This document shows positions 10,748-37,597 of a DNA stretch of 64,000 bases, piece by piece. Position numbers and translations under genes: made by a program. The notes beneath the pieces are model-generated. The model had not been told where the DNA came from. It did no database searches and worked only from the letters and a program-made list of their open reading frames with translations. Position 1 is the first letter of the stretch. Each line of letters begins with the position of its first letter. Origin of the DNA: Prorocentrum cordatum (lineage: Eukaryota); the NCBI GenBank assembly GCA_963575745.1, contig CAUYUJ010000214.1, positions 124,001-188,000 of the forward strand, given 5' to 3'.

Positions 10748-10826
<79 letters not shown>

Positions 10827-13091: not shown

Positions 13092-13148
<57 letters not shown>

Positions 13149-13221: not shown

Positions 13222-13271
<50 letters not shown>

Positions 13272-13925: not shown

Positions 13926-15474
13926 AGCGACGACAAGGCGGGGACCTTGACGGCGACAAGGGTGGTGGCGACGTTGACGGCGGCGGCGGCGCGGCGGCGG
14001 TGGCCACGTGCTGCCAGCCGTGGGCGCGGCGGGCGCAGGCCCATTCTGCGCGCGCTGCGCTTGCTCCGTGGCCGCGCAGGCGCGCCCCTCCTCCCTGGGT
14101 GCTCAGGCCCCCCCCCCCCTCTGCAAAGGTGCCCCTTTTCGGGCCCCCAAGCGTCATGGCACCCCGCCCCTATCGGGCGACCAGGTAGGTGACCGAACAA
14201 ACATCGGTGACCGACAGCGTGCCCCAGGGTTGGACCGAGAGCGGAGGGTGCCCGAAGTTGTGACCGAGACTGTAGCTCGTCTCGGTTTCGGACCAAACAT
14301 TTCGGTCACACTTGGGCGCGGTCGGACAATTTGGGCGCCAGTTTCGGTCACACTCGGGCAGGACTGCGTGACAAACGGTACGGTGACCACACTGTGGTTA
14401 GTCAGTGGGCTTTTCTCTCTTCGGGGTGGGTTCCATCAGCTGCGCCTTGCCGAGAGCGTTCCAGGGGCGCCCGGATCGTCCCGAACGGCCGCTGGAGATC
14501 CGAGTTATGGTTTGCAAACCAAGCATAACGAGGAGGGCCGCTGTGGTGAGTCGGGGTGACCGCACGGTTTTGGCACTTGGGTCGTTCTTCGAGGATGCCT
14601 CGGGCAAATGGGGCATCCCCGGCCCCAGTTCCCCGAGGTGAGCCCGCCGTGTCGCCCGCCCTACGAGCTCCATTCGGCAGGACGCCTGCGGGCTCTCGCC
14701 GTGCTAGGCTTCGAGGCAAGACAATGAGGTGATGATGAAACGGTGATCGTTTTTTCATGCCTCGTTTTGCCGATCGGTGCGAGCTCCCAAACCCCCCCTC
14801 CCCCCCCCAAGGAGTGGATCGTGGCTGTTTTTGGGCGCCTGTTTCGAGCAGGTGGGGCCTCCCCCATGACGAACGCACTGCTGCAAGCAGTTGCACCAAG
14901 CAGAAGTCCGGAGCCAGACCCTTCCCCCTCCCCCCTCCCTTCCGCCCAATGTCGAAACGCCGGATAAAAACGCTCGCATGGAGGAGGGTGAGAAGCATGC
15001 CCGAGTCATGCTAAATGCGGCTTCGCGGATTCCGCCGGCCGATCCTTTTGTTGGAATCGCGTAAAAAAACACACACGAGTGAAACGCGCTTCCAGCCCAA
15101 CGCGAGGCCTACGCGCCTGACAGCTCCTGGGACACAGAAACCATGAGTGAGATGCACCCGCAGGGCTGCGAAAGCCTCGCTTCGGTGGACGACTCACGCA
15201 TTTCCTGCGCCCCCAGGCTTCTGAGACACGTAAAACACGAGGCGCTTCAGTTCGGCACATCCCTCACGCACTCCGTGCATCATGGGAGCTCTGCTGGCCC
15301 CAGAGATTGCTCCGCGAGGTCTCAATTTGGCACACCTCTCACACATTTCGTGCGTCAGGGACCTCCAGGGGCGATCCGCTGGCCTTCAGGATGGCTAAGT
15401 TGAGCTTGACTTCGGCACGCTCCTCAGGCAATTTCGTGCCTCTCGGACTCCCAGGAAATCTTAGCTAACCTTAA

Positions 15475-20480: not shown

Positions 20481-23029
20481 GAGGTCACCAGGTCTGGGGC
20501 ACGGACCGTGCGGTGAGGTCTGTTGGACCGAGGGCACCGTGCGGTCTGTCTCTGCGCCGTTTCGGGACCCCCGTGTCCTCGGGTCAGCAAGGTGGGGGCG
20601 CCGGTGTGGCGACGCCGCGGGCGAGTGATCACCGCCGCTTGCCAGCTTGCAGCAACACCGCGGCGGTTCGGTCGGTTCGGCTGCGTCGCAGTCGGTTGCG
20701 TTGGGTCGGTTCGGTTCGGTCGGTCGTTGTGTCGTTGCTGCGTTGCTGCGCCCTTCTAGCCTGCTTGCGACCTCTCGGTCCCGGTTCCGCCGTTGGTTCC
20801 GCTGTCGGTTCGGTCAGTTTTCGGCTGTGCTGTCGCTGTGGACCGTGGACTGCCTTGCTTTCTCGGCCCGTCTCGTTTCTGGCTCCAGGAGGAGGCTCGA
20901 AGTTCGAGGATGGATGTTTCATACTTGTGTTGTCGTGTTTCGGCCTCCAGGCGGCCATTCATCGCCACGGCGGCATTCCCCCAGAATCTCTTGTCAAGAT
21001 GCCCTGCAGGCCGAGGGCCCAATTTCAGTGCGAAGTGGAAGTGGAGGAGGAGTTGGAGGAGTTGGAGGAGGACGAGGGGGTTATGGGGAGGCAGAGGAGT
21101 TGGAAGGGCTGGAGGGGCTGGAGGATGAGGATGAGGGGGTATGGGGAGGCAGAGGAGTTGGAGTGGTTGGAGGGGTTGGAGGATGAGGAAGAGAACGAGG
21201 AGTGGGAGGAGCTGGAGATGGAGTCGGAGCTGGGTGGAGGAGGCAAAAAGGCGGAAGGCATGCAGCGGCCCAGGGCCGCGCTCCGCGCAGGGCCCGAGGG
21301 GCGCGCCGGGCCCTGCGGCGCCAGAGGCCCCCGGCCGAGGCCCGCGGCACCACGGCTCAGCGCTCTGAGCCCCTCCAGGCCTCGGGGGCGTGAGCGCCCC
21401 CAGCGCTCCGAGCCGAGCCGCCCCAGCCAGTGGCGACGGCGGCAGCCGACGGCCGGAGTCTCCGGGAGGCGGTGGTGGATGCGGAGGGTCGCCGAGCGCG
21501 CTGCACTGCTCGCAGGGTGCCTCCTCGCAAGCGTCAGGAAAAAGAGCGCATGTCTGCATCGGTGTAGTGGACCGTTGATGCCCCATGGCGGATCCAGGCC
21601 ATCTGCGAGCAGTAGCTTTGCGAGGTAGTGGAACGCGCTTCTCCAGAGATCCTCCTCCTCCTCCTCCTCCTCCTCCTCCTCCTCCTCCTCCTCCTCCTGG
21701 GGCTCCCGCCCCGCCCCCGCCCTCGGCACCGCCGCCTCGCTGCTCACCGCCGGGCGTCCCGAGGACCTCGCCGGAGCACGGAGCTCCGCCCACCGCGACC
21801 ACGAGCGGCTCTCCTCCTCCTCTCCTCCTCCTCCTCCTCCTCCTCCCTCCTCCTCCTCCTCCTCCCCTCCTCCCCCTCCTTCTCCTCCCCTCCTCCCCCT
21901 CCTCCTCCTCCCCTCCCCCTCCTCCTCCCCCTCCTCCTACTCCTCCTTCTCCTCCTCCCCCTCCTCCTCCTCCTCCTCCTCCGCCTCCTCCTCCTCCTCG
22001 GTTGGGCCCCACTCCCCGCCGCGCAGTCTCGCGCTCGGGCACCCTCAGGGCAGCTCCTGGTCGGTCGGCGACAGCAGGCTGTCGACGTGCGCGGTGGACC
22101 AGCCGCCAGCACGCCCCTCCCCCCCCGTAGCCTTGGCGCCACCCTCGAGGACGATCGCAATTCTGCCGTGCCCTGCGCTGCGCCCCTGGCATGGCGGCTT
22201 CCCTGCACGATGCCGTGACCTTCGACGCTGGGTTGAGTCATCGGCTTTGCCCAGGGCGGGTGGTCGGCTGGGCCTGACCTACACGATGAGGCCTCGGGCC
22301 GTCAGACGAAGGGAAAGCCGCTCGGTGCTCACTCGCAGCCCGAGCCTGCGGGGGCTATCTGAAAGCTGCGCTGTACCCGCGCCCGCAAACTTCGACCAGG
22401 CGGACCAGGCGGATGGGCGCGCCACCCCGCGCCGCCCCCGCTCTGGGCGGCTCTTGTTTTCCACAAGGGGCAGAGCGGCCGCTGCTGGCTCACTGGGGGC
22501 TGGCGTGTACACCGTTGGGTCTGGCACTCCATCCGCCAGCCCCAAGAGCGCGGGATCCTGCAGCAGCGCTCGCTCCGCCGCTTCGGGTGGGTCTGGCGTG
22601 TCTCTGGGCTCCAGGGCCTGCTGTTGAGCTGTCGGCCGTGTCCCAGCGCGACGTGCTGCTGGCAGCGCGACGGCAGTGACTTCGCTTCCCTCGCCTTCAG
22701 GTTCTGGTGCGCTTCCAGCACGCTGCTGCTCATCGTAGCCAACTCGGGGGGGTTGCGTGGGCCGTCTGCGCCAGGCTGCGGCCACGCCCCGGTGGTGTCG
22801 GCCCTCCTTCGGCACCTCCCTGGGCGATGCCAGCGCTCACCTCGTGGCCCACTGCTGACCCCTGAGAGCCAGCGTCCCGAAAAAGGTGCCGCATCGCCTT
22901 TTCTTTCTGCCGCACTTCTCGAGCCAGATCGACCTGTGACGATCCTGGGTCCCGGAACCAGGCGAAGACGCCCAGTGTGAAGATCGCCTAGACGTAAGAG
23001 TGACCTTTCGCCGGAGTGGCCTTTGGTGC

Positions 23030-24582: not shown

Positions 24583-25392
24583 TCGGCGAGAGCAGCATTT
24601 TGGAAAAAACTAGCGAAAACCCGTTTCCCGGGAATCCTGCGTGTAAAAAAACAATACGCGGGGGAGTGTCGGATATCTTCGGGACGCCATCAGGGGAAGT
24701 GGGAGAGTATTTTCATATTGTGTAATTGTGGAGGAGGGGGGAGGGGGGAGGGAGGAGGGAGGGGGGGGAGGGGGAGGAGGGGGGAGGGGCCAGGAGGGCG
24801 AGGGAGGGGGAGGGGGAGGAGGGAGGGGGAGGAGGGGGGAGAGGAGCTGGGAGGGAGGGGCGGAGGCGGGGGAGGGGAGGAGGCAGGGCGAGCAGCGGAG
24901 GAGGGGGGGGGAGGGGGATGGGGAGAGGAGGGGGAGGAAGAGGGGGGAGTAGGAGAGGAGAGAGGAGGAGGAGGAGAGGAGGAGAGGAGGAGAGGAGGAG
25001 GAGGAGGAGGAGGAGGCGGAGGGGAGGAGGAGGGGAGGAGGGGGGGAGGAGAGGCAGGAGGAGGGGCGAGGAGGGGGAGGATTGGAGGAGGAGGAGGGAG
25101 GCGAAGGAGGAGGAGGGAGGAGAGGAGGAGGAGGAGGAGGAGGAGGAGGAGGAGGAGGAGGAGGAGGAGGAGGAGGAGGGAGGGGGAGGAGAGGCAGGAA
25201 AGGGAGGAGGAGGCGAAGGAGGGGGAGGATTGTGAGGAGGAGGGGCAGTTTTACTATGCCGCTGCAGACTTTACCCGCCCACTGTCCTGGCCCCTCCTGC
25301 TGTCGCTCGTCCCTCCACGCTCCTCTCGCCCTTCCCGCTCCGCTGGGCCGCCGGCCTCTTCCCCCCTCCTCGGATGCTGTTGCCTGCTGGTG

Positions 25393-26082: not shown

Positions 26083-27052
26083 CAAGACTGCATTGGCGCT
26101 TCGCGCCATTCACCTTGGTCCTTAAAGTTCGGCATGCAGGCGGGATTGCAGGAAGGTCAAGCCGGCAATTTAGCGATAACTCCTTGTTGCCTTTTCCGGC
26201 ATCGTCGTTAACATAAGGTTATTCGTTATCCTTCCTCCATGCTTCTGTTTCTTCATTCTCGCCACACCCTGCGCTTTCTCCCCATCCTCCTCAGTTCTTT
26301 TTTGCGGAGGCTCCTCGGAGAGCCTCTGGGGGCCTCACAAAATTTGTCAGGCTTTCTGAAGGCCTTTTGGAGGCCTCCTGGGCATGTTCTGGGGTCCTCT
26401 GGGGGCTTTCTCGGGCCACCCTGCCTCCAACCGCGGTCTCCCTGAATGACTGGGTCACGATTTGGAATGCTTTAGAGCGTGTCTTCGGGCCATTTTGGGC
26501 CGCCATGGGGCACTCTTGGGGCCATCTTGGACCCCTGTTGTGCCGTTTTGGGGCTGTCTTGGACTGCCTGGAAGCCCTTTCGGATAGTTGTGGGGCGATT
26601 TTGGAGCCTCCCAGGCGGCTTCGGACGCCCAGAAGACCGCCGTCTTGGAGCGTCGGGAAGCCGAAAAGAGGATAACCCCAAATTGTCTCTTGGGTCCTCC
26701 TTGGGAGTGCTCTTGGAGGCCTCTTGGGACGCTTCGGAGCGATCTTTGGGGGTATGACGGCTTCCCTGGCGTCGTCGTGGACCGTATTGGGGCTCTCTGG
26801 GGTCGTTTCGGGAGCGCGCCGGAACGCCTGGAACCCGTCTCGGGCCGTCTTCGGGTGCTGGGAAGGCTTGGCGAAACGCCCTGCGAGGCCCGGGGAGCCG
26901 CTTCGAGGCTCGTCCAGAGGGTCCCAAAGCCCCAGATCCCGGGAGTCCGGTTTTGGAGGGGGGGGGGGTGATGGGTTTTCCCCCCGCCCGGGCTTTTTTA
27001 AATATATGTAAATATATAGGAAGAGGAATATATATATATAGGTACATGTATA

Positions 27053-27074
27053 TCCGTAGCCATTTTGGCTCAAG
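27053..27074 (+). other. Dinoflagellate spliced leader (DinoSL), perfect genomic copy at the 5' end of a retrocopy
   Basis: TCCGTAGCCATTTTGGCTCAAG is an exact match to the DinoSL consensus DCCGTAGCCATTTTGGCTCAAG. It is followed by a 75-nt UTR and an ATG at 27150, not by an SL-RNA intron. Confidence 0.97.
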
Positions 27075-27149
27075 CACCTTCAGCCTCGAGGACCTGCAGC
27101 ACGTTGTGCCCTCATCCGCCCCCTATTGTAGAAGCAGGCCGCCCGCGTC

Positions 27150-30100
27150 ATGGCGTTCCGCGCCGCCTCTGTGCTGCTCCTGCTGGCGTCCGGGCAGGCC
27201 GCTGTGACGCACACCAGGTTCGTGTGCGGCCAGCAGACGCAGATCTTCACCTCGACCTCCGCGGACGCCGCGGGTACCGCCGAGTTCTCGGAGATCACCA
27301 CGGAGGACGGCAAGTGCAACATGATCCAGAATGCCAATGTTGCCTCTGTCAAGTTCTGCGGCCCAGGCAAGCTGACACTTTCGCGAATGACCTGCAGCGA
27401 GCACCACGACTACAAGGCACAGATCGTCGAGCACAGCGCGAGCGGTGGAGTACGCCAACGCTTCCACGGGGCAGGCGCCGAGGGGCTGATCTCGGAGCTT
27501 GCCTACCACCTGGTGTGCTACTGGGTGGCAGTCTCCACGGGCATCCTGGCTATGGCGGGGTGGGCGATTGGGTGGATCGCCAGCCGTGCCGCCAGGTGGC
27601 GAGAAGTTGGACGGGTACAATTTTTTCGAATTCATTTCGCACTTCGAGCGGGTCGTGCTCGAGTTCGAGGCGCGCGAGGGCTTCCATCCGCACGCCATAG
27701 ACAACGACATCAGTTGGCTTCTTACTTAGTGGTGATGCGCCGTGGCGGGGGATGGCTACAGCATCATGGGTTACTTGGCAGGTACAGCGCGGGCCTTCGG
27801 CGATGCGCTCGGATGGGCGACCCGTGCGGTGCCCACGGCGAGGCAGATAAGGCCCACCACCTACCTCCACGAGCAGGGGAAGCTGTTGATACTTGTGCCG
27901 CGGGTGCCTCTACCGTCCAGCGGGCGGTGAAGGCCGTGCGGAGCTCTTGCTTTTGTCACGTCAGACGTCGCAGTCATCCCGATGTGTTTCCTGACACAAA
28001 GCGAGCCACAGAGGAAAGCGTACCCAGGCCTGCGGCGGCCCGCTGCCGTATGGCGCACTGCTGCAGCGGTGCCGGGTACGGTATCGACCCCAATTCGGCT
28101 GGCATGGACAGTGTTGGAGGGACCCCTTCAGCATCAACGAGTTCGGCACCAAGCTCGGACCAAGGTACAGGCGTTGACCCTCATCAGTCAGGAGATCATG
28201 CTTGTTTTTCGCACCATTTTGGTTGCGGGGAGTCTGACACGAAGATCGACTTCATGGACGCCTTCTGGCAGCACCCGGGTATGAGAGGGGGGGCTCCGCA
28301 AGATGTGGAGGCGTTATGTTCTGCGCTGAAGAACGTGCTGGATCAGTACGCGTCCCGCCCCACATCAGCCGCCCCAACAAGGTCACGACGGAAGTCTAAA
28401 AGGCAGGAGTCCAAGGCGAGGACCGTCGAGGAGTTGTCGTCCAAGTTAGCCAAGGCGCTAGAGGACGGCAAGAAGGGAGGATGGACAGCCGAGAAGTTGG
28501 TGACCACCATCTCTGACATCATTGGTACGACTGGAGGTACACAGCAGCAGCCGCAGCAGCTGCCGCCGCGCACAGGGCCGCGGCAGGAGCAGCGACAGCA
28601 GCACCACCAGGAAGGCAGAGGGGACAGAGGGAAGGAGGCCACCGCATCGAAGGCAAAGGGAAAGTTGCCGAGGTTAGGAGGCTATGCGAAGGGCCAGGTG
28701 CTCAGCGCTAATGGGCTGCGGCATCTGATCGACGACGGGAAGCTCGACCGGCTACAGGAGGCGATCCTTGTAGTGGCATGCGCTGATGAAGTGCAAGCAT
28801 TGCGGGATCTAGCCAGGTCGAGTGGTATCAAAAAGAGCCTGGGGGTGGTCACGCGTGAAGACCCGGCCATCGAGGGCGTCACCAACCAGAAGAAGTGGCT
28901 CAGGATAGATACCGAGTGCGGAAGGAGTGCCCCACTGGAGGAGCTCTACATCACCCCCCTGAAGGACACAGTGCCCGAGATCCCGGCGGTGGAGGTCCCG
29001 AAGGCGGCAGGCAGTGTGGCAGCAGCGCCCACGAAGGAGACGGAGACCATCAGGATCACCCTTGTGAAGCGCTACGCCTCAGATGAAACTTGGAAGGCCT
29101 CGATGATGACATCGATTCATAGCTTGTGGGACGCGTCCGGCGTGACCCGCACATATGGATTTCGAGCTCTTGAGGGAGGAGAGGAAAGATGCAGGACATG
29201 CTTCGCCACCGTCCAGGCGGGGAAGGTACCTAGCATCCTGAAGCAGTCTGGCCAGGCGGGCTTGTTCGCCGAGCGCCTGGTGTGCAACGGAGGTAGGTCG
29301 GCAGTCGAGTGGGTCACCCAGGACGCCGACGAGGACGATCGGGTCTACCTCAGCCGGGTGTTGAGGCAGGTGGGGAACGATGCCAACGGCTTAGCCTTCA
29401 GGAGAGGAGGGCAAGCACCGCTAGGCTGGAGGCTCCCGGACGGCACCGTGCCGCGCGTTCCTGATCGCGCCCTTCCCTGGGAGATCAAGGGCACGCCGGT
29501 TGATTGGAGCAGTGCCGACGTGACGGGCTTTCTTGAGCAGAACGGCTTCGCCGAGATTGCCATGATGAGACCGAGATGGGGAAAGAAAGGCTGGGTCGTC
29601 AAGGCGAAGGCTCCCTCGGGTACGAAGGAGGCCTCCGCCTACACCATCGCGGACGGCACGGTCATTCACATCGTCAGGGACATTCGGAGACAAGAAGGAA
29701 TGGTTTCGCGCCAGCTATCGGCGCGCCCTGGAGGAGTCAACAAGGACCTCCAGGAGAAGGAGCAGAAAAGGAAGGATGCGGAGAGGGCGGTGGAGCCGTG
29801 GAAGTACGCGCAGGCCCCCCCCGATGACGCCGAGGAGGACATGCCGCCGCAGACTGCCCCGGGGGCCGGGGGCGGCGCCGAAGCCGGCGCTCCCGTCCAG
29901 AGCGAGCTGGCCCAGAGGGTGGCTGCCATAGGCAGCAAAAGGGAAGCTCCAGCACAAGGAGGAAAAGAGAAGTCGAGGAGATCCTTTCCGGCCTCGGCGA
30001 TGGGCTTCAAGACTTGGGACCTCGGTGGCACGGGCGACTGCTTCTACAGGGCGGTGGCCGCGATGGCCGCAATCGAGGATGGGAGAGACAGCCAGCAGAT

Positions 30101-31874
30101 TGAAACCAGGATCAAGCAGCTGGCCGCCAAGATGAGAGCGGAGTCTACCAACTACATCCGCTCCCATGAGCTGTGGAAGGACACGTGGGTCGCCGACACG
30201 CTGTCGAACACCACGTTGGACGACGGCGCTGTACCCACCTGCTGGAAAGAGTGGGTAGACGCAACGGCCAGGGAAAATCGCTGGGTCGACGAGCACGCGG
30301 CTGCGGCACTCTCAGCCCGAGTGGGCCGTCGCATTGTGGTCTTCGTACACGACGGCGGCGGCTGGGTCAAGGGATGGGTCATTTCGCCGCCCGAGCCTAC
30401 CCAGGCGACCACCAACCAGTCGAAGCTGGCAAAGGCAAGGAAGAAAGCCTTGGAGCAGCCACCTCTACCAGTTCTTCTCATGGACTCCCACTACGTGGCG
30501 ATGCGGAAGAAGAGGCCGGAAGATGTGTGGCCCATGGAGTGGGGCGAGGCGCCGAACACGCCGTACGCCCCCAACAAGCTCAGAGGCGCCGGAAGCGACA
30601 CCGACGTCGGGAGCTGGTGCAAGGAGAGCCACAGCAGCAGCCAGCAGGGCCGCACATGTGGTGACATTTACCCGGCCGGCAGCCCGGGTCGGGAAGGCCG
30701 CAGCAGCAACAGCGGGGCCACTCAGAGCCCGCGTGCTTCGCTGTGGTACGCAACGGGAATCCGAGCCAGCCAGGACAAACCTTGGCGGCAGGCGGGCACG
30801 TCGCCGCCGGCTCCCCCGAGCAGCGCCTCAGAGGGAGGTGTCACCAGCTGGTGCAAGCAGAGCGCCTCTTCAGCTTCGGGCAGTGGCGGGGGCAGGAGGA
30901 GGCTGCGAGGAAAGCAAGCGGGCTCGTGGAGGACGAGCCGCCCCATGCCATCGATCCAGGAGGAGGCCGCCAGGGACAGTGACCTGCGCGACATCTCCCC
31001 GACGCAGCCCTTCGTACCTCGGGGGCCGCCTCAGGATCGCGGGGAGGAAGAGGAGGAGGAGGGGCGGGTCTTCGGCCCCGCCACCAGGTTCGAACATGCA
31101 GAGGAAAAGCGGCGGCTGCGGAACAGCAGGCGGCGCGGGACTGCGGCGCTACCACCGCAGCTGGGCTTCCGTCAGCCGAAGGCTACCAGTTGGAGGTGCC
31201 CTGTCGCAGGGTGCTCGTTCGTGGCCACTGGAATATTCGAACATGGCCAAGAGGCACGGCATTACCCAGGAGGGTTTGCGCCACGCAGGAGGGAGGCGGG
31301 GGAGTGGAACTACGACCTGATGATGAGGCAGAAGGCCCGCCACCGCAAGCGTGAGCACCCAGACGTTGACAGGAGGGTGTTCACCACAATGAGGGATCGG
31401 CCAGCGATACTGGTCCCGAAGACGGAGGAGGAGATCAGGCAGCAGCTGGGGCTGGGCGCAGGTGCCGAGATCCCGCTGAGCCTGAAGTCGCACCGCTGCT
31501 CGCGGTGCCAGAAATGGTTTCCCGAGTTCGAGTCGCGGCCGCAGTGCGCCATCAGCATCACGGCTCACAACGAAGCCGAGCATGCAGCAGCGCGGCTGGA
31601 GCTGGGGGCTAAATTCAAGACGACTCGGAGGAAACAGAAGGATCTGGACCTGCAGCGGGCCGCCACGGGCGTCGTCTGCGAGCCAGCCACGGGCCAGGCC
31701 AAGAAACAGTACGCTGCGAGGATGTACGCTGCCCTGCCGCCCGACGCAAAGAAGAGGAGGGTCGAGAGGGCGGCGGAGCTGCAGAGGCACAGGAAAAGCA
31801 GGGCACAGCAAAGTGCCGCCGACGGACACGATGGAGCGCCCGACGCTGAGGCGGGGCGCTCGGGTCTGGAGTGA
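27150..31874 (+). CDS. Chimeric ORF1 (1574 aa): 98 host-derived aa fused in frame to LINE ORF1 with RRM-like region, OTU-like cysteine protease and two C2H2-like Zn fingers
   Basis: Long non-repetitive ORF. OTU-like motifs are WDLGGTGDCFYRAVA (Cys codon 30039), WVDE..AAALS and DSHY (His codon 30489). Zn-finger-like motifs are CPVAGC...HRKREH (31197-31358) and CSRC...HNEAEH (31497-31583). A tentative RRM-like segment WEIKGTPVDWSSADVTGFLEQNGF starts at about 29478. Confidence 0.85.
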   Translation: MAFRAASVLLLLASGQAAVTHTRFVCGQQTQIFTSTSADAAGTAEFSEITTEDGKCNMIQNANVASVKFCGPGKLTLSRMTCSEHHDYKAQIVEHSASGGVRQRFHGAGAEGLISELAYHLVCYWVAVSTGILAMAGWAIGWIASRAARWREVGRVQFFRIHFALRAGRARVRGARGLPSARHRQRHQLASYLVVMRRGGGWLQHHGLLGRYSAGLRRCARMGDPCGAHGEADKAHHLPPRAGEAVDTCAAGASTVQRAVKAVRSSCFCHVRRRSHPDVFPDTKRATEESVPRPAAARCRMAHCCSGAGYGIDPNSAGMDSVGGTPSASTSSAPSSDQGTGVDPHQSGDHACFSHHFGCGESDTKIDFMDAFWQHPGMRGGAPQDVEALCSALKNVLDQYASRPTSAAPTRSRRKSKRQESKARTVEELSSKLAKALEDGKKGGWTAEKLVTTISDIIGTTGGTQQQPQQLPPRTGPRQEQRQQHHQEGRGDRGKEATASKAKGKLPRLGGYAKGQVLSANGLRHLIDDGKLDRLQEAILVVACADEVQALRDLARSSGIKKSLGVVTREDPAIEGVTNQKKWLRIDTECGRSAPLEELYITPLKDTVPEIPAVEVPKAAGSVAAAPTKETETIRITLVKRYASDETWKASMMTSIHSLWDASGVTRTYGFRALEGGEERCRTCFATVQAGKVPSILKQSGQAGLFAERLVCNGGRSAVEWVTQDADEDDRVYLSRVLRQVGNDANGLAFRRGGQAPLGWRLPDGTVPRVPDRALPWEIKGTPVDWSSADVTGFLEQNGFAEIAMMRPRWGKKGWVVKAKAPSGTKEASAYTIADGTVIHIVRDIRRQEGMVSRQLSARPGGVNKDLQEKEQKRKDAERAVEPWKYAQAPPDDAEEDMPPQTAPGAGGGAEAGAPVQSELAQRVAAIGSKREAPAQGGKEKSRRSFPASAMGFKTWDLGGTGDCFYRAVAAMAAIEDGRDSQQIETRIKQLAAKMRAESTNYIRSHELWKDTWVADTLSNTTLDDGAVPTCWKEWVDATARENRWVDEHAAAALSARVGRRIVVFVHDGGGWVKGWVISPPEPTQATTNQSKLAKARKKALEQPPLPVLLMDSHYVAMRKKRPEDVWPMEWGEAPNTPYAPNKLRGAGSDTDVGSWCKESHSSSQQGRTCGDIYPAGSPGREGRSSNSGATQSPRASLWYATGIRASQDKPWRQAGTSPPAPPSSASEGGVTSWCKQSASSASGSGGGRRRLRGKQAGSWRTSRPMPSIQEEAARDSDLRDISPTQPFVPRGPPQDRGEEEEEEGRVFGPATRFEHAEEKRRLRNSRRRGTAALPPQLGFRQPKATSWRCPVAGCSFVATGIFEHGQEARHYPGGFAPRRREAGEWNYDLMMRQKARHRKREHPDVDRRVFTTMRDRPAILVPKTEEEIRQQLGLGAGAEIPLSLKSHRCSRCQKWFPEFESRPQCAISITAHNEAEHAAARLELGAKFKTTRRKQKDLDLQRAATGVVCEPATGQAKKQYAARMYAALPPDAKKRRVERAAELQRHRKSRAQQSAADGHDGAPDAEAGRSGLE
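27430..27444 (+). repeat. Left target-site duplication (15 bp)
   Basis: AGCACAGCGCGAGCG, identical to 35676-35690. Confidence 0.95.
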
Positions 31875-34800
31875 CGCCAGGCCGCCGACGGGCCCCCCTC
31901 CCGGCCCCTGCTGCCGCCTGCCCGTTTCAGAGAGGCAACGGCAAGCGGAGGGGGGAAGGGTCCGGCGCCGGCGCCTCCTGGCGCGACCCGCTCCTTGCGA
32001 GGAGGTGGAGGAGGAGGAATGGCAGCAGGGCAGCTCCTCAGCTGCTGGAGTTGCAACGTGCGTACGTTCGGGGCTGCCTGGGTCGCTGCCGATGCCGCCC
32101 TCAGCGAGCAGCAGGACGTGATCATGCTTCAGGAGACGTCCCACACCAGGGATGAGTTCATCCGATACCAGAACTCGTTCTCGAGGCGGGGATTTGCAGT
32201 TTACCAGGCGCCAGCCTGTGCCAGGAAGGACGGGCGACCAGTCGGCGGCGTGCTGGCCCTGGTGTCCAAGCGCCACAGGCAGCGCTTCCTCTGGAAGAGG
32301 GCGGGGCCCGGGGGGCAGGTGCTCGCGGTCGAGGTCGCGGGCCAGGTCCTCGCCAACACCTATGTCCACCCCGACGGCCACGCGCAGGGGATCATCGACG
32401 GGATTGACCACGATTTCTGCGTGGACAACACGACCAGGTGGGTCGCCTGTGGCGACTGGAACGAGGTCCCAGGGAAGCTCACCGCACCACCCTTCGTTGA
32501 GCAGAAGGGCGTCAGCTCCGCGGCCGGCGAGTGGACGCCCACCAGATACAAGGATCCATCGGGGAGGCAGCCGAGGCCGATCGACTACGCCTTCGTCTTC
32601 AATTCCGAGGTGGACTCCTTCGATTTCGCCAACTACCAGCTATCCGACCACAAGGTCATCTGCTTCAGCTTGCGGGCCCCCCCGGGAGGCATCGCCACGG
32701 AGGTCCGGCTGAGGCCGCACGTGCAGTACGGCAGGCCGCCCGGGGTCCCACAGGACACCTGGGTGGAGGTCACCCGCCGCCTGTGGGAGGACAGGCAGCA
32801 CGACCAGAGGAACTGCCCACACGAGCCGGGCTCCAGGAGCGCGCAGCAGTGGGTGAACACCGAGTGGAAGAGCTTCACCGCCGCCCTGGCGGAGACGCTG
32901 GACGAGGCCGCGGCCCATCTTGCCACCCCCAGCGGCGAGCGCAGGGGCGAGGAGGAGGAAGAGGTCGACGTGGCCGACGGGGCGTGGAGGGCTGCCGACT
33001 ACACTGGCGCCCCGCTCTCCTCGGAACGCGTGCCGTCCAGGCGCACTGTGGAGCGCCGCCGGCCCCGGAGGCAGGAGGTGCCCAAGGGCGACGTGAGCAC
33101 GCACGAGGTTCAATGGTCGAAGCTGCAGGCGACGGCCGCTGGAAGCTTCAGACAGAGAAGGTGCGCCAACACTTTGGGACGGTTGCGGAGGCTTCTGTGG
33201 CTCGAGAGCCACGGCCAGGGCCGCTCAGACGAGGCGCGCGAGCTGCGAATCAGGTGCGACCGGGCCGATGCCACCCTCGGCCTGGGGAGCGCCGCGGAGG
33301 AACAGCAGCTGCTGGACAGGACCAGGCAGCTGGAGGCGAAGATTCTCCTCTTCGAGCACAAGATGCGTCAGCTGCAGGAGGACGACCGCCAGGAGCGGAT
33401 AGAACAGTGGAAGACATCCATGAAGGAGGATCGGCGGGCCCACCAGTGGCTCCGAGGCGTGATGCCCACGGACCCCGCCGTGTCCGACGAGCAGGGAAAC
33501 GTCTCCAGGTCCAAGTCCGAGGCCCTGGAGTTCTTGAAGCAGCGCTGGCGGCGGGTCTGGGATCGCCCCAAACCCGACCCGGCCCGCTGGCAGGATTATC
33601 TGGCCGCTCACCTGCCCTCCCGCGCCGACGACGAGGCCGTCTGGCGGCCGCTGGACGAGGGCGAGGTCAGGACAGCCATGGAAAGGCTGAGGGGCTCCTC
33701 CGCGGGGCCCGACGGCTGGCTCGGGGCCGAGCTCTGCGACGCCCTCTGCGCCCTTGGTGCCATCACCTTCCTCCTCAACCAGTTCGAGACCCTCGGGCTG
33801 GTGCCAGACGAGTGGAAGGCCATGAGACAGGTACACATCCCCAAGGACGACACCGACGAAGGGCCCGTGAGCACAGCCTCGCTGCGGCCCATCTCCGTGA
33901 CATCGTCCTGGTACAGGCTCTGGGCGTCGGCGCGCTTCCGCTCGCACGACTGCTCCGAGTGGATTGACACGTGGTGGGACGATGCCATGCTGGGAGCCCG
34001 GAAGGCCGCGGAGGCCCACGAGGGCATAGCATGGGCAGTGGGGGCTGCTGCCGCGGGCAAGTACCTCACCAGCTGGGACTTTTCTCTGGCGTTCGACCAC
34101 ACCGACCCAGAGATTGCGGCCAAGGCTTTCGACACGCTCGGAATGCCGTCGAACGTGAACAACATGCTGTCCGAGATGTGGTGCCACCAGCTCCGCTGGC
34201 TACAACTTGGACAAGCTGTACACCCCGAGCCACAGCGCGTGGCCAGCAGCTTGCCTCAGGGGGACCCCTTCTCCCCTCTCGGCCTGTCGGCCGTGCTGCT
34301 GGCGCCGCTGCTCAGGCTCCGGCACACCTGCCCCGGCGTGGACTGCAGGCTCTACGTCGATGACAGGACCTGGGCGGCGGACACCGCCGCCGACTTGAAG
34401 GCAGGAGGCGATGTCTGGTGCGACGCCTCGGACGTCTTCGGATTCGTGGAGAACGAGGGTAAAAAGCAGTGGCTGCACAAGACGCCACACGGGAGGAAGA
34501 GGCTCGAGGAGGATGGGATCGATGGCACCTGCATCGTCGACTCCGCGACGGTCCTCGGGGCGAAGATCACAGGAGGAGTGAGGAGGAAGGCTTCGAGGAA
34601 GGAGAGGAGGAAGCTGGAGGAAGCGAAGCGTCAGCTCAGGAGAGCGGCCAAGCTCCCGACGGCCCCGCGGGACAGGCTGAGGGTCGCTGCAGCCGGGCCT
34701 TTGGCCAAGGGGTGTTGGGGATGGGTCGAGGGCCCGCCCAACCAGCTTGACACTCGGCAGGCCGATGCGGCCGTGGCACGGGTCGCCAGGGCCCCCAAAG

Positions 34801-35675
34801 CTGCTTTGGTTCCACTTCGGCGGCTGTTGCTGGGACACCGAGCAGATCTCAGGTACAGAGCGTCGCACGACGCCGTGGTCGCATGCGCCCGCGTGGAGCG
34901 CAAGGATCGAGGACGGGGCAGCATCACAGACGTGCCCTGGACACAGCAGGGAACAAAGGGCCTCCCGGCCGCGTTCGACCGCCACTTGTCCTGGACGGGG
35001 TGGAGGAGGACGCCGGAGGCCTGGACCTGGGAGCACGCAGAGCTCCCGGAGGCCGTCTTCTCGCTGAGACGGGGCTCACCCCACTGGAAGGAGCCGCGGT
35101 GGCTGGGACACCTCCTCCGGGAGGCCTGGCGCTGGAGGCTGCACAAGGACGCCATCGACTCGGCGAGGCACGAGGCGGTGCAGGTGCGGGGCTGGGGCGC
35201 AGGCGGCTACGATCCAGTGAGGATCAAGGCCGTCCAGGACCTCGCCCAGACGAAGGGCAACAAGGCGATGCGAGTCCTCTCGGGGGCCATCGTGTCGCCT
35301 CTGTGTGTGACGCGCGCCGACGGCCTGCCCGACGGGCAGTGCCCCTGGTGCCGGGCGTCACTCGGCAGCCACGACCACCTCGCGTGGCAGTGCGACGGGC
35401 TCGCACAGGAGCGTCCGGCCGGGGCGCTGCCCGCCGACGCCATGCAGAGGAGGTTCTTCTGGACCACTGGCAGGAAAGAGCGCTCCGCCGTAGACGCCAA
35501 GATCTTCGAGTGGGGCCTCAGGCTTGATGATATCCTCATCAACTGGAGGTACTCGTCCGACGGCTTCCTGGAGCAGTTCGGGCGACCCCAGGAGGTAGCC
35601 TAGCCCGCGGGGTTCCCGTGCGGGCCAGACGCTGCTCGGTCATCCAGACGGCTGGCCAGCGAGATCAAGCTTTTC
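27445..35675 (+). mobile_element. Non-LTR retrotransposon (APE-type LINE), 8231 bp, coding capacity apparently intact, possibly 5'-truncated
   Basis: Bounded by a perfect 15-bp TSD AGCACAGCGCGAGCG (27430-27444 and 35676-35690). Encodes an APE endonuclease, RT and CCHC finger, plus a long upstream ORF. Confidence 0.95.
31995..35603 (+). CDS. LINE ORF2: APE endonuclease + reverse transcriptase + C-terminal CCHC Zn finger (first ATG at 32019)
   Basis: APE motifs: SCNV, DVIMLQET, NTYVHP, GDWN, IDYAF, SDH (32643-32651). RT motifs: AGPDG, LRPISV, WDFSLAFD, LPQGDPFSP (34251), YVDD (34353-34364). CCHC motif: CPWC-x7-HLAWQC (35340-35393). No internal stops. Confidence 0.96.
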   Translation: MRGGGGGGMAAGQLLSCWSCNVRTFGAAWVAADAALSEQQDVIMLQETSHTRDEFIRYQNSFSRRGFAVYQAPACARKDGRPVGGVLALVSKRHRQRFLWKRAGPGGQVLAVEVAGQVLANTYVHPDGHAQGIIDGIDHDFCVDNTTRWVACGDWNEVPGKLTAPPFVEQKGVSSAAGEWTPTRYKDPSGRQPRPIDYAFVFNSEVDSFDFANYQLSDHKVICFSLRAPPGGIATEVRLRPHVQYGRPPGVPQDTWVEVTRRLWEDRQHDQRNCPHEPGSRSAQQWVNTEWKSFTAALAETLDEAAAHLATPSGERRGEEEEEVDVADGAWRAADYTGAPLSSERVPSRRTVERRRPRRQEVPKGDVSTHEVQWSKLQATAAGSFRQRRCANTLGRLRRLLWLESHGQGRSDEARELRIRCDRADATLGLGSAAEEQQLLDRTRQLEAKILLFEHKMRQLQEDDRQERIEQWKTSMKEDRRAHQWLRGVMPTDPAVSDEQGNVSRSKSEALEFLKQRWRRVWDRPKPDPARWQDYLAAHLPSRADDEAVWRPLDEGEVRTAMERLRGSSAGPDGWLGAELCDALCALGAITFLLNQFETLGLVPDEWKAMRQVHIPKDDTDEGPVSTASLRPISVTSSWYRLWASARFRSHDCSEWIDTWWDDAMLGARKAAEAHEGIAWAVGAAAAGKYLTSWDFSLAFDHTDPEIAAKAFDTLGMPSNVNNMLSEMWCHQLRWLQLGQAVHPEPQRVASSLPQGDPFSPLGLSAVLLAPLLRLRHTCPGVDCRLYVDDRTWAADTAADLKAGGDVWCDASDVFGFVENEGKKQWLHKTPHGRKRLEEDGIDGTCIVDSATVLGAKITGGVRRKASRKERRKLEEAKRQLRRAAKLPTAPRDRLRVAAAGPLAKGCWGWVEGPPNQLDTRQADAAVARVARAPKAALVPLRRLLLGHRADLRYRASHDAVVACARVERKDRGRGSITDVPWTQQGTKGLPAAFDRHLSWTGWRRTPEAWTWEHAELPEAVFSLRRGSPHWKEPRWLGHLLREAWRWRLHKDAIDSARHEAVQVRGWGAGGYDPVRIKAVQDLAQTKGNKAMRVLSGAIVSPLCVTRADGLPDGQCPWCRASLGSHDHLAWQCDGLAQERPAGALPADAMQRRFFWTTGRKERSAVDAKIFEWGLRLDDILINWRYSSDGFLEQFGRPQEVA

Positions 35676-35690
35676 AGCACAGCGCGAGCG
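35676..35690 (+). repeat. Right target-site duplication (15 bp)
   Basis: AGCACAGCGCGAGCG, identical to 27430-27444. The host reading frame resumes immediately after it. Confidence 0.95.
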
Positions 35691-37597
35691 ACTACACAAC
35701 CAATTGCGAGGTCATCAGCACGGCGGGCACCGTCGTCGACGGCTGGCTCGGCAGCTTCACGCTGAGCTGCTGAGCTCGGGCCGCGCGGCACACCTCCCTG
35801 AGCATGGTCGCCTCCGAAAGTCACCAAAAAAATGTACATGTGTGTGTATATATATGTATATGAGCTAGCCTCAGCAATTTCAGGCATCCAGCCTCAGCCG
35901 CTCTTACAATTTGGCCTCCTCTCAGACTGACCTCACCCAGATGCGCTCGACACAGGCTACATGAGGCTAGCCAGTCCCGACCAGTCCAGCCTGCCCGACC
36001 CTAGCAGATACTGCCCAGCCGTTAAACTATACCTTAGTTCTTACTGTGTGCTCTGATTTTGTCATGGGAGTAGGGAGTAGGCTTATAGAGCATACCCCCC
36101 CGTGAACTATTTCCCACAGCAGCATTAACACCTATATTGACACACTCAGTTACGCACCGTCTCAGTCGCCGCTTGCTCTGCGAATCTCACTCGGCCACGC
36201 ATCGTGCCTGTCCATTTTGCTCTGCAAGCCTCACACGTTTATTGTGTACGTGCATATCGTATCCTACTCAATCCTCCTTCTCATCAGGTTGTTGGTATGG
36301 TGTATATGCTTGGTATTATCTTCCGACTTGGTACTGCCGCGGACTGAGTTACCCTCGTTTTGTCGGGCCATTGCTACCTGCTTTACTCTGTGTCTGACCT
36401 TCGCCGCACCCCTCTGCGGTATACTTTGTCCGCTCACTTTTATACACTGCGACAAGCGAGTCTTCATGTCTGGTCAACGTCGAGAGACAACGGGAAATGG
36501 GAGCATGAGGCGGCGGGAGGATCATTGAGGGCTTTCTTTTTTCTTCCCTGCCCCGTCGACCGCCGAGCGGGACGGGGTTCCAAGGCCCCGCCAGCACCAG
36601 CAGGAAACAAGTCCTCGAGCTTCGAGGCAAAGGAGAGGGAGAAGAGGAGGGGAAGAAGGAGGAGAAGGAGGTGGAGGAGGAGGAGGAGGAGGAGGAGGAG
36701 GAGGAGGAGGAGGAGGACGGGTCGATGGAGGCGGCGTTGTAGGAGGAGGGAGGAGGAGAGAGGAGGAGGAGGAGGAGGAGGAGGAGGAGGAGGAGGGAGA
36801 AGGAGGAGGAGGAGGAGGAGGAGGAGGAGGAGGCGGAGCAGGAGGACGAGGAGGAGGAGGAGGAGGAGGAGGAGGAGGAGAGGAGGAGGAGGAGGAGAGG
36901 AGGAGGAGGAGGAGGGAGGAGGAGGAGGAGGGAGGAGGAGGAGGAGGAGGAGGAGGAGGAGGAGGAGGAGGATGAGGAGGAGGAGGAGGGAGGAGGAGAG
37001 GAGGAGGAGGAGGAGGAGGAGGAGGAGGAGGAGGAGGGAAGGAGGACAGCCGGGGGAGGAGGAGGAGGAGGACTGGTGGTCGGAGAGGAGAGCGGGGAAT
37101 GGAGGATGGGGGAGGGTGCGAGCCGAAGGTGATGGGGCGGCACGAGGGGCAGGGGTCCCCGACGCCGTGACTTTTTCGTATTCTGCGTAGCCCCTTGGAT
37201 GTCTGAACCCCTGCCCTGGGATCGCTTTCTCGTCCCGAGCCGTCGTTAGGGGGCCCGGGCAGTGATTTTCACAAACGCGAGCGGATCTAGGTGCAGGGGC
37301 ACAAACACCTGTGCCCCAGACCTCTGCCGGGACGGGTGCTGGCCAGCACTCCCTGGGTAGAGCACCGCCGCGGCGACGAAACACGAGGGCCACGAGGGAG
37401 AAAAGCCCACCAGGGCCGAACACGCCAGGAAGATAACTCGATCCTCGATCCTTGACCCTCAGACCTCGATCCTTGAGCGGGCCGCTGCGCGCCGTACTTT
37501 GATTTGCGAACCTCGAGCCCCGAACCCCGAACCCCGAGCCTCAAGCCCCGCCCCTCAAGCCCCGATCCTCAAGCCTCGAGCTTGCAGCCTCGGCTTA

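What the first reader, a model, noticed from the sequence alone, without database searches (positions are those of the whole stretch)
31872..32021. ORF1 and ORF2 share a frame, separated by one UGA-C codon followed by a GC hairpin: candidate programmed readthrough
Seen: both ORFs start at positions divisible by 3. After TGA (31872-31874) the frame stays open (RQAADGPPSRPLLPPARFREATASGGGKGPAPAPPGATRS-LRGG) into ORF2. The context is GAG-TGA-CGC. From 18 nt downstream, CCCCCCTCC (31893-31901) pairs perfectly with GGAGGGGGG (31947-31955), with inner stems TGCCG/CGGCA and TGCC/GGCA. Known: UGA-C is the leakiest stop context, and 3' stem-loops stimulate readthrough in alphaviruses and others. Inference: readthrough gives a 2817-aa polyprotein and sets a gag/pol-like ORF1:RT ratio, with the LRGG at 31995 then releasing EN-RT.
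Basis: partly seen in the sequence, partly recalled or inferred. Interest (0 to 1): 0.85.

Follow-up and report, generated by a model that had tools for sequence, protein, structure and literature searches.

The report
In-frame stop between two LINE genes
The stop codon, open spacer and GC hairpin are really there, at the junction of the two genes of a young retrotransposon that carries its own ubiquitin-type protease, but read-through of the stop is unproven and an ordinary restart at the second gene's own start codon is at least as likely.

Summary
The described sequence is present. TGA 31872-31874 (GAG-TGA-CGC) ends ORF1. The same frame runs open for 48 codons to ATG 32019 of ORF2 (endonuclease and reverse transcriptase). 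A perfect 9-bp GC inverted repeat lies 18 nt downstream.

Most of this is not beyond chance:
- All three forward frames are open in the 77% GC spacer.
- Sharing a frame has a 1 in 3 chance.
- The hairpin scores z -1.27 against shuffles.
- The spacer lacks the codon-position GC pattern of both ORFs.

The locus is one intact 8,231-bp non-LTR (LINE) insertion, 27445-35675, with a perfect 15-bp target duplication inside a small host gene. The first 98 codons of "ORF1" are therefore host exon.

ORF1 holds an OTU-like cysteine protease. LRGG-type motifs recur at homologous positions in relatives. The only exact LRGG in the window's product lies in the spacer, six codons before ORF2's ATG (1.6% of shuffles).

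ORF1-only relatives also end here, one with an identical 96-residue tail, so the stop is not copy-specific decay. Distant relatives are fused and carry 2A-like peptides at this position. No junction DNA of relatives could be obtained.

Odds: initiation at ORF2's own AUG 0.5; read-through plus OTU cleavage 0.3.

The parts
27150..27444 (+). 5' part of a small host gene (signal-peptide-like N-terminus). It is not part of the element, but it is in frame with the element's open 5' leader.
   Evidence: Contigs of uninterrupted relatives of this gene join 27429/27444 directly to 35676/35691 (tables 5, 7, 8). Sequence read. GC3 is 0.88.
27430..27444 (.). Left copy of the 15-bp target-site duplication.
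   Evidence: Identical 15-mer at 35676-35690. The joint at 27429->35676 has 15 letters that fit both sides.
27445..35675 (+). Non-LTR (APE-type LINE) retrotransposon, 8,231 bp, single copy in the window, with no poly(A) tail.
   Evidence: Boundaries. EN and RT domains. No other copy in the window.
27445..28280 (+). 5' leader. The frame is open, but the region lacks coding-type GC3. It is a probable 5' UTR or a cleavable leader.
   Evidence: 0 stops in frame 0, against 4 and 6 in the other forward frames and 7, 11, 4 on the reverse strand. GC by codon position is 0.68/0.60/0.58.
28281..31874 (+). ORF1 core, from the Met of MRGG to the TGA. MRGG aligns with LRGG at the start of the conserved ORF1 core in relatives.
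   Evidence: P0006 ALRGGGAPS and P0033 RLRGGGVS. L001 HLRGG.
29973..30593 (+). OTU-like cysteine protease domain. The Cys box GDCFYRA lies in 30015-30053 and the His box DSHYVAM at 30483-30503. It is followed by LRGA at 30579-30590.
   Evidence: The profile hits nairovirus OTU chains (6oar_A, E 2.5e-4) and OTUD3. The Foldseek top hits are all OTU deubiquitinases, best E 5.5e-3. Pfam OTU matches relative P0033 at 5e-10. Motif positions.
30894..30914 (+). RRRLRGK motif, which resembles the ubiquitin tail and is conserved in relatives.
   Evidence: Identical RRRLRGKQ in P0006 and P0010; RKRLRAK in P0054.
31188..31583 (+). Two zinc-finger-like CxxC...H...H motifs at the C-terminal end of ORF1.
   Evidence: Conserved in P0010, P0025, P0045, P0054, P0064 and P0006. 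Positions.
31872..31874 (+). TGA stop of ORF1, in the context GAG-TGA-CGC.
   Evidence: A 6,808-nt contig of run X1 covers 28898-35705 with 0 differences.
31875..32018 (+). Inter-ORF spacer: 144 nt, 77% GC, no ATG, no stop in any forward frame.
31893..31955 (+). GC hairpin. The 9-bp arms are at 31893-31901 and 31947-31955, inside a roughly 100-nt extended fold.
31995..32006 (+). LRGG in the ORF frame, six codons before ORF2's ATG. It is the only exact LRGG in the whole frame-0 product.
32019..35603 (+). ORF2, 1,194 codons plus TAG. It contains the AP-endonuclease (about 32088-32651), the reverse transcriptase (about 33837-34478) and a C-terminal CPWC...H...C knuckle (from 35340).
35604..35675 (+). 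3' UTR of 72 nt, ending ...AAGCTTTTC without an A-tail.
35676..35690 (.). Right copy of the target-site duplication.
35691..35773 (+). Remainder of the interrupted host gene, up to its TGA stop.

Best explanation
The finding is the ORF1/ORF2 junction of a young, intact APE-type LINE (27445-35675) that landed in the coding exon of a small host gene. The TGA is the element's genuine ORF1 terminator.

ORF2 (endonuclease and reverse transcriptase) is most likely made from its own AUG at 32019. This is the first AUG after the stop and lies in a strong context. It would be reached by ribosomes or 40S subunits that have terminated on ORF1, that is, termination-reinitiation or another internal start, as proposed for other two-ORF LINEs. 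The very GC-rich, strongly folded spacer possibly helps to hold or position them.

The shared frame and the LRGG just before the AUG are then best read as inheritance from a single-ORF ancestor. More distant relatives are still fused and separate the two halves with a 2A-like peptide at exactly this place.

Shown: the anatomy of the element, the OTU-like protease, the family-wide stop after ORF1, and the Met at the endonuclease start in relatives. Inferred: the mode of ORF2 initiation.
For: Element anatomy:
- 15-bp duplication and insertion joint.
- EN and RT domains.

The stop after ORF1 is a family feature:
- 6 of 6 ORF1-only relatives that reach the C-terminus end after the last zinc-finger-like motif. 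For the 5 in which a script found the motif, the tails measure 39-96 residues.
- P0010, at 33% identity, has exactly the window's 96-residue tail.

ORF2's own start:
- 16 of 69 relatives that cover the endonuclease N-terminus begin with Met within 15 residues of its start, e.g. P0005, P0012, P0016.
- There is no ATG anywhere in the spacer, and the context of ATG 32019 is GGAGGAATGG.

The spacer does not look translated:
- GC by codon position is 0.81/0.83/0.67, against 0.62/0.54/0.77 and 0.65/0.52/0.86 in the ORFs.

Open frame and hairpin are not beyond composition:
- All 3 frames are open, and 62% of shuffles are open.
- Fold z is -1.27.

Published precedent, read as passages: reinitiation or coupling is proposed for human L1 (63-nt spacer) and shown for SART1, where a structure downstream of the stop-start site is needed (PMC5972666; PMC3894237).
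Against: - An exact LRGG sits in frame six codons before the AUG. It is the only exact LRGG in the whole product, in an element that encodes an OTU-type protease. Only 322 of 20,000 spacer shuffles give an LRGG anywhere.
- LRGG is enriched in relatives (6 observed, 1.83 expected; 3 of 500 shuffles reach 6) and lies at homologous domain borders, once upstream of the endonuclease (P0073). Under plain reinitiation this motif would never be translated.
- Reinitiation after an ORF of about 1,200 codons is considered inefficient; the review PMC3894237 calls it highly improbable for LINEs.
- The stop is UGA-C, and the segment after it is in raw energy the second most stable of 626 windows in the element.
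- No DNA of relatives' junctions was available, so frame conservation is unknown.
Confidence: 0.5

Rival explanations
1. Programmed UGA read-through. A few percent of ribosomes decode UGA-C, helped by the stable downstream fold. They translate the 48-codon linker and continue into ORF2. The element's own OTU-like protease then cuts after LRGG (31995-32006) and releases the endonuclease-RT. This would give a gag/pol-like ORF1:ORF2 ratio.
For: - Same frame, UGA followed by C.
- LRGG six codons before ORF2, seen in 1.6% of shuffles.
- OTU-like protease in ORF1.
- LRGG-type motifs at homologous borders in relatives, and LRGG upstream of the endonuclease in P0073.
- Distant relatives are single-ORF polyproteins with a 2A-like separator at this very position (40 of 69), so translating straight through this junction is the family's older habit.
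- The post-stop fold is -59.3 kcal/mol, second most stable of 626 windows in raw energy.
- The copy is intact and young, so the TGA belongs to a working element.
Against: - All three frames are open in the spacer, so openness says nothing.
- The fold is no better than shuffles (z -1.27).
- The strong 9-bp stem starts 18 nt after the stop. By my recollection that is further than the roughly 8 nt typical of known stimulators.
- The spacer's GC3 is the lowest of its three codon positions, unlike both ORFs.
- A Met sits at the endonuclease start here and in 16 of 69 relatives.
- The same frame and the LRGG could be relics of a fused ancestor.
- No Rfam read-through element was found.
- No comparative DNA was available.
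Confidence: 0.3
2. Dead or crippled copy. The family is a single-ORF polyprotein element, and this copy or its recent lineage acquired a nonsense mutation in the linker.
For: - The nearest ORF1 relative, P0006 (2,006 aa), is a fused ORF1-EN-RT protein.
- Distant relatives are fused.
- The element is single-copy here, and only its own two ORFs were found in the 5.8-billion-protein search.
Against: - 6 of 6 ORF1-only relatives stop in the same region, and P0010 has an identical tail length.
- There is no other defect in about 2,700 codons, and the target duplication is perfect.
- P0006 lacks the first ~45 residues of the endonuclease at its junction. It may therefore be a gene model that skips a stop, or a deleted copy.
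Confidence: 0.07
3. Initiation upstream of the ATG at a near-cognate codon in the spacer (in-frame CTG at 31908 or 31911, ACG at 31938). This would give ORF2 a short leader that the OTU protease removes at LRGG.
For: - In-frame CTG, CTG and ACG codons precede the LRGG.
- P0073 has a 10-residue Met-led leader that ends in LRGG ahead of the endonuclease.
Against: There is no evidence of use, and the spacer has no coding-type GC3.
Confidence: 0.06
4. A 60-nt in-frame intron (GT at 31871 to AG at 31930, with a pyrimidine tract and TTTCAG) removes the TGA from part of the transcripts and fuses the two ORFs.
For: The pair exists, and its length is a multiple of three.
Against: - 29 in-frame GT..AG pairs enclose the TGA, so one is expected by chance.
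- The X1 contig across the site is unspliced.
- By my reasoning, a spliced LINE RNA would itself be copied, so the intron would be lost from the family.
Confidence: 0.04

Closest known systems
Two-ORF APE-type LINEs whose ORF2 is translated by termination-reinitiation or coupling (human L1 with its 63-nt spacer; silkworm SART1 with UAAUG and a downstream structure). Passages read in PMC5972666 and PMC3894237.
   Same: ORF1 stop, a short AUG-free spacer, and ORF2 with its own AUG on one RNA. A stable structure lies just downstream of the ORF1 stop, as in SART1.
   Different: ORF1 is very long and carries an OTU-like protease. The ORFs share a frame, with an open spacer that encodes LRGG. The spacer is 144 nt, and the stop and start do not overlap.
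Stop-codon read-through that makes Gag-Pol or replicase fusions: gammaretrovirus UAG with a pseudoknot, alphavirus UGA-C with a 3' stem-loop (recalled, not read here).
   Same: In-frame stop between a structural or abundant protein and the polymerase. UGA followed by C. A GC-rich fold downstream. A protease in the upstream product and a matching cleavage motif at the border.
   Different: The fold is not better than shuffles, and the main stem starts 18 nt downstream. No conservation data are available. A start codon sits at the head of the downstream ORF. In four searches of the held library I found no paper that reports programmed read-through between LINE ORFs or an OTU domain in a non-LTR element; one search listed 4 papers, of which I opened two as passages and saw the other two only in the listing.
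Non-LTR retrotransposons with 2A 'StopGo' peptides in the N-terminal region of ORF2 (L1Tc, Ingi, CR1, L2, Rex1, Crack). Passages read in PMC3708506.
   Same: Of 69 relatives of this ORF2, 40 carry a 2A-like xPGP motif within 70 residues upstream of the endonuclease. That is the place where the window has TGA-spacer-LRGG-ATG.
   Different: The window's product has no xPGP motif at all. The separator here is a stop codon, with or without LRGG cleavage.
OTU-family deubiquitinase-type proteases: nairovirus L-protein OTU domains, OTUD3, OTUD5/DUBA. OTU domains in Helentron and Ginger1 transposons (PMC2836005; PMC6431247).
   Same: Cys box and His box, profile and fold matches to OTU chains, and ubiquitin-tail-like LRGG and RLRG motifs at domain borders.
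   Different: Here the domain lies inside ORF1 of a LINE. The searches above found OTU described only in DNA transposons. Self-processing at LRGG is inferred and not shown. The window's own ORF1 does not reach any Pfam threshold.

Membership tests
APE-type non-LTR (LINE) retrotransposon | AP-endonuclease domain followed by a reverse transcriptase in one ORF | tested here: met
   Exo_endo_phos E 2.2e-9 (37.8 bits, cut-off 24.5). RVT_1 E 3.3e-7 (30.7 bits, cut-off 29.6).
APE-type non-LTR (LINE) retrotransposon | Insertion flanked by a target-site duplication, with no terminal repeats | tested here: met
   Perfect 15-bp duplication at 27430-27444 and 35676-35690. Uninterrupted relatives of the host gene join across it.
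APE-type non-LTR (LINE) retrotransposon | Repeated family in the genome | tested here: inconclusive
   No second copy in the 64-kb window, and no whole genome is held. Run X6 holds many contigs about 80-90% alike over ORF2.
Programmed stop-codon read-through signal | Downstream ORF in the same frame with no intervening stop | tested here: met
   However, all three frames are open in the spacer, so only the 1-in-3 frame match counts.
Programmed stop-codon read-through signal | Leaky stop context (UGA followed by C) | tested here: met
   GAG-TGA-CGC. That this context is leaky is recalled knowledge.
Programmed stop-codon read-through signal | 3' RNA structure beyond what composition gives, at a suitable distance | tested here: not met
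   z -1.27, with 18 of 200 shuffles as stable. It ranks 29 of 626 windows after GC correction. The main stem starts 18 nt after the stop.
Programmed stop-codon read-through signal | Stop, frame and structure conserved in relatives, with compensatory changes | not testable with these tools
   No junction DNA of relatives was obtained. The search for related loci gave one distant locus with a deleted junction and nothing in two other collections. The single read-laying run did not list the column.
Programmed stop-codon read-through signal | Coding signature in the read-through extension | tested here: not met
   The spacer's GC by codon position is 0.81/0.83/0.67, against 0.62/0.54/0.77 (ORF1) and 0.65/0.52/0.86 (ORF2). 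With only 48 codons the power is low.
Programmed stop-codon read-through signal | Read-through product observed | not testable with these tools
   Needs a reporter assay, ribosome profiling or mass spectrometry.
OTU cysteine protease | Catalytic Cys box and His box in the right order | tested here: met
   GDCFYRA within 30015-30053 and DSHYVAM at 30483-30503. Both are conserved in P0006 and P0025.
OTU cysteine protease | Sequence match to the family model | tested here: inconclusive
   The window's ORF1 gives no Pfam hit at E<=1. The 4-sequence profile hits OTU chains at E 2.5e-4 to 0.15. Relative P0033 passes Pfam OTU (40.4 bits, cut-off 23.3), while P0025 does not (16.3 bits).
OTU cysteine protease | OTU fold | tested here: inconclusive
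   The model has mean pLDDT 64.7. The Foldseek hits listed are all OTU deubiquitinases, but the best E is 5.5e-3, TM is 0.26-0.55, and none reaches E<=1e-3.
OTU cysteine protease | Cleavage after LRGG-type motifs | not testable with these tools
   Only indirect evidence. LRGG in relatives is 6 observed against 1.83 expected (3 of 500 shuffles reach 6), at homologous borders.
2A/StopGo-bearing non-LTR element | D(V/I)ExNPGP-type motif upstream of the endonuclease | tested here: not met
   There is no xPGP anywhere in the window's frame-0 product. It is present in 40 of 69 relatives.
Termination-reinitiation type LINE junction | ORF2's AUG is the first AUG after the ORF1 stop, in a good context | tested here: met
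   No ATG in 31875-32018 in any frame. The context is GGAGGAATGG.
Termination-reinitiation type LINE junction | ORF2 expression depends on prior ORF1 termination | not testable with these tools
   Needs reporter experiments.

The most novel reading that the evidence does not exclude
A LINE that expresses its endonuclease-RT the way a retrovirus expresses Pol. Low-level read-through of a UGA-C stop at the end of ORF1 would be followed by release of ORF2 by the element's own OTU (deubiquitinase-type) protease at an LRGG encoded in the 'spacer'. The same protease would trim ORF1 at its other LRG[GA]/RLRG sites and at the leader border. This could even free ORF1 from host peptides when the element lands in frame in an exon, as it has here.
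Probability: 0.3. Interest if true: 0.8.

Novelty: new variant of a known kind. Interest (0 to 1): 0.5.

Why it matters
How LINEs translate their second ORF from a bicistronic RNA is a long-standing open question. The reviews read here call the mechanism unclear (PMC3708506; PMC3894237).

This family appears to have tried three solutions at the same junction:
- a 2A peptide in a single ORF;
- a stop plus a start codon;
- in the window, a stop in frame with an LRGG that matches the element's own OTU-type protease.

If read-through and OTU cleavage occur, this would be a gag-pol-like strategy and a self-processing polyprotein in a non-LTR retrotransposon. I found neither described in four searches of the held library. 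If they do not occur, the locus is still a clean, young example of an OTU-bearing LINE. It offers a natural system for comparing ORF2 expression modes within one family.

Tried and rejected
- Whole-genome search for other copies: no genome is held.
- Other copies in the window: none by blastn or tblastn. Only an unrelated tandem repeat near 36630-37100 recurs.
- Close relatives in the 5.8-billion-protein collection. Three searches were run: the junction region at near length, the junction region at shorter length, and an endonuclease N-terminal profile. They returned only the window's own ORF1 and ORF2, plus four short relatives at 26-49% identity.
- DNA of relatives:
  - Metagenome contigs gave one distant, frameshifted element whose ORF1-ORF2 junction is deleted (L001).
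  - Viral and prokaryotic genome contigs gave nothing.
  - A first alignment was too divergent for the tool.
- Laying runs X1, X5, X6 and X9:
  - This defined the insertion.
  - The tables were cut to the best-supported rows, and no row covers the TGA column in the diverged X6 copies.
  - The listed X6 pieces stop at 31681 and resume at 32041, which says nothing about the spacer.
- The listing of cluster members could not be run because the database is switched off. The sources of P0006 and others are therefore unknown, including whether their ends are stops or contig ends.
- Earlier findings of the scan: nothing.
- Rfam: no family in 27000-36000, apart from a chance-level snoRNA match at E 0.92.
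- ESM Atlas for the ORF1 core (28281-29972): no usable hit.
- The bacterial promoter/terminator scan of the junction is irrelevant for a eukaryotic element.
- Intron idea (31871-31930): rejected as chance, because 29 in-frame GT..AG pairs enclose the stop.
- Selenocysteine or reassigned UGA: not pursued. The interrupted host gene itself ends in TGA, and the Pfam Selenoprotein_S match in ORF2 (18.3 bits, cut-off 29.8) is below threshold and lies in a coiled-coil-like stretch.
- A literature search with a guessed organism name gave nothing useful.


Full report
**1. The observation**

An ORF runs from 27150 to a TGA at 31872-31874. The same frame then stays open for 48 codons (RQAADGPPSRPLLPPARFREATASGGGKGPAPAPPGATRSLRGGGGGG) to ATG 32019. 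That ATG opens a 1,194-codon ORF ending in TAG at 35601-35603. The stop context is GAG-TGA-CGC. CCCCCCTCC (31893-31901) is the exact complement of GGAGGGGGG (31947-31955), 18 nt after the stop. The description is therefore accurate.

Its statistical weight is small:
- The spacer is 77% GC and has no stop in any of the three forward frames.
- 12,357 of 20,000 dinucleotide-preserving shuffles are open in frame. Only 'same frame' (1 in 3) counts.
- The 104 nt from the stop fold at -59.3 kcal/mol. Shuffles average -54.1 (z -1.27), and 18 of 200 fold as well. A 261-nt context gives z -0.78.
- Within the element this is the second most stable of 626 sliding windows in raw energy. It ranks 29 of 626 once GC is regressed out.
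- Perfect 9-bp inverted repeats with short loops occur at 5 positions in the element.
- GC by codon position in the spacer (0.81/0.83/0.67) is unlike ORF1 (0.62/0.54/0.77) and ORF2 (0.65/0.52/0.86). With 48 codons of Pro/Gly/Ala-rich linker this test is weak.
- Rfam finds nothing here.

**2. What the locus is**

ORF2 has an AP-endonuclease domain and a reverse transcriptase domain, so this is a non-LTR (LINE) retrotransposon.

Laying public contigs on 26500-36500 showed contigs that join 27429 directly to 35676, skipping 8,246 nt, with 15 letters fitting both sides. These were one contig in run X5 and one in X6. Further contigs in X1 and X9 join 27436 to 35729.

The sequence confirms a perfect 15-bp duplication at 27430-27444 and 35676-35690. 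The element is therefore 27445-35675 (8,231 bp). It has a 72-nt 3' UTR and no A-tail.

It sits in the sense orientation in the coding exon of a small host gene. That gene's ATG is the '27150' start and its last 27 codons follow at 35691-35773. The joining contigs differ from the window's flanks by about 5-17% (table 8). They are therefore relatives of the host gene, not necessarily the empty allele, and I do not claim that the insertion is polymorphic.

- The next 837 nt (27444-28280) are open in frame: 0 stops, against 4 and 6 in the other forward frames. They lack the high GC3 of the coding parts.

A 6,808-nt contig of run X1 covers 28898-35705 without a single difference. X1 may be the source sample. 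There is no second copy in the window. The large protein collection holds only this element's own two ORFs at close range.

**3. ORF1**

Pfam finds nothing in ORF1. Relatives from the representative library (98 hits) allow it to be read.

It contains a Cys box (WDLGGTGDCFYRA) and a His box (DSHYVAM). The evidence that this is an OTU-like protease is:
- A four-sequence profile of this region hits nairovirus OTU domains (best E 2.5e-4) and OTUD3.
- An AlphaFold model (pLDDT 64.7) gives only OTU deubiquitinases among the listed Foldseek hits. These are weak: best E 5.5e-3, none at or below 1e-3.
- The distant relative P0033 passes Pfam's OTU threshold.

I call it OTU-like and rate it as probable.

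Enzymes of this kind cut after ubiquitin's LRGG tail (recalled knowledge). In the 98 relatives LRGG occurs 6 times against 1.83 expected, and 3 of 500 shuffles reach 6. The motifs lie at homologous places:
- At the start of the conserved ORF1 core: P0006, P0033, also L001. The window has MRGG there, at 28281.
- Right after the OTU domain: P0006, P0033, P0054. P0010 and the window have LRGA.
- Ahead of the endonuclease, once (P0073).

RRRLRGK is conserved as well.

The only exact LRGG in the window's whole frame-0 product is the one in the spacer, at 31995-32006, six codons before ATG 32019. An LRGG appears somewhere in the spacer in 322 of 20,000 shuffles.

**4. The junction in relatives**

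No junction DNA could be obtained, so only proteins speak.

- Six relatives that hold only ORF1 and reach its C-terminus all end soon after the last CxxC...H...H motif. In the five where the script found the motif, the tails measure 96, 81, 73, 66 and 39 residues. The window's tail is 96, identical to that of P0010 at 33% identity.
  - I could not check whether these ends are stops or contig ends (could not be run).
- Of 77 relatives matching the endonuclease, 69 cover its N-terminus:
  - 16 begin with Met within 15 residues of the projected start.
  - 40 carry a 2A-like xPGP motif (D[VI]E[PS]NPGP or R[IV]GEAxxPGP types) within 70 residues upstream, often after a long ORF1-like part.
  - 1 has LRGG.
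  - 12 have an extension without an exact motif; several of these look like decayed 2A.
  - The other 8 of the 77 start too far inside the domain and were dropped before this count.
- P0006 is a 2,006-residue fusion but lacks the first ~45 residues of the endonuclease. It may be a gene model bridging a stop, or a deleted copy.

The wider family is thus ancestrally or commonly a single-ORF polyprotein with a co-translational separator at this exact spot. 2A in the N-terminal region of ORF2 is known for several LINE clades (PMC3708506, passages). The window's subfamily has a stop and a start there.

**5. Weighing the readings**

Three points hold under every reading:
- The TGA is very unlikely to be decay of this copy.
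- Sharing a frame is what descent from a fused ancestor would leave behind, whatever the present mechanism.
- The hairpin is real and strong in absolute terms, but it is what this composition gives.

For separate initiation at AUG 32019 (my best reading, 0.5):
- It is the first AUG after the stop and lies in a good context.
- A Met sits at this position in 16 of 69 relatives.
- The spacer has no coding-type GC3.
- LINE precedents exist (L1, SART1).

For read-through plus OTU cleavage (0.3):
- The LRGG next to the AUG, in an element with a matching protease.
- The UGA-C context.
- The stable fold after the stop.
- The family's habit of translating through this junction.
- The doubt, voiced in PMC3894237, that reinitiation can work after so long an ORF.

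Smaller rivals:
- A crippled copy (0.07).
- Near-cognate initiation in the spacer with LRGG trimming (0.06).
- A 60-nt in-frame intron (0.04). 29 such GT..AG pairs exist by chance.

**6. Comparison and novelty**

The locus works like a bicistronic LINE junction. It might instead work like a retroviral or alphaviral read-through site. It fails the membership tests that could be run for a read-through signal, namely structure beyond chance and coding signature. The decisive tests, conservation and an observed product, could not be run.

OTU domains in transposons were found in print only for Helentrons and Ginger1 (PMC2836005; PMC6431247). Four searches found no paper that describes an OTU domain in a non-LTR element or programmed read-through between LINE ORFs. 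The held library is incomplete, and Repbase reports are not in it.

I therefore rate the element as a new variant of a known kind and the read-through claim as open.

**7. Limits**

Its cut tables do not show the TGA column in the diverged copies of run X6.
- The kind of run X1 (RNA or DNA) is not on record. I therefore do not claim that the element is transcribed.
- The supplementary files of the papers were not consulted.

Noticed in passing
window 27150-28292: The host gene's ATG (27150) runs in frame into the element's 5' leader, which has 0 stops in that frame against 4-11 in the other five. It continues into ORF1, whose conserved core starts at MRGG, aligned with LRGG in relatives. A leader that stays open, with a protease site at its end, could let the element be translated from host exons and then trimmed. 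The in-frame landing itself has a 1 in 3 chance.
   Followed up: partly
relatives P0015, P0019, P0021, P0033, P0059 and others: 40 of 69 related endonuclease-RT proteins carry a 2A-like motif just upstream of the endonuclease. The motifs fall into two sequence classes, D[VI]E[PS]NPGP and R[IV]GEA[SKA][HN]PGP. P0059, P0035 and P0066 carry two copies.
   Followed up: partly
L001 1-5327 (metagenome contig): A degenerate, frameshifted relative with HLRGG at the ORF1-core start and an OTU Cys box (GGNGDCGYRA). It has a deletion that joins the OTU region to the second half of the endonuclease.
   Followed up: partly
window 36630-37115; also about 1717-1957, 4147-4594, 6432-6863, 9040-9330, 13312-13927, 21811-21999, 24797-25244, 56752-57040, 60728-61979: A tandem or satellite-like repeat just downstream of the interrupted gene recurs at many places in the window at 73-91% identity.
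   Followed up: no
window 10001-14000: Strong strand asymmetry (GC skew 0.40 and 0.71) with lower GC (0.52-0.53) than the surroundings.
   Followed up: no
window 27110-27444 and 35676-35815: The flanks of the interrupted host gene match very deep contigs (summed depth in the hundreds to thousands) at about 83-96% identity, in run X1 and in a poly(A) metatranscriptome (X9). The host gene therefore belongs to an abundant or highly expressed family.
   Followed up: no
window 28281-31871 versus 32019-35600: ORF2 has a clearly higher GC3 (0.82-0.92 in 150-codon windows from 32100 on, except one at 0.78, 34575-35024) than ORF1 (0.71-0.81) within the same element.
   Followed up: no
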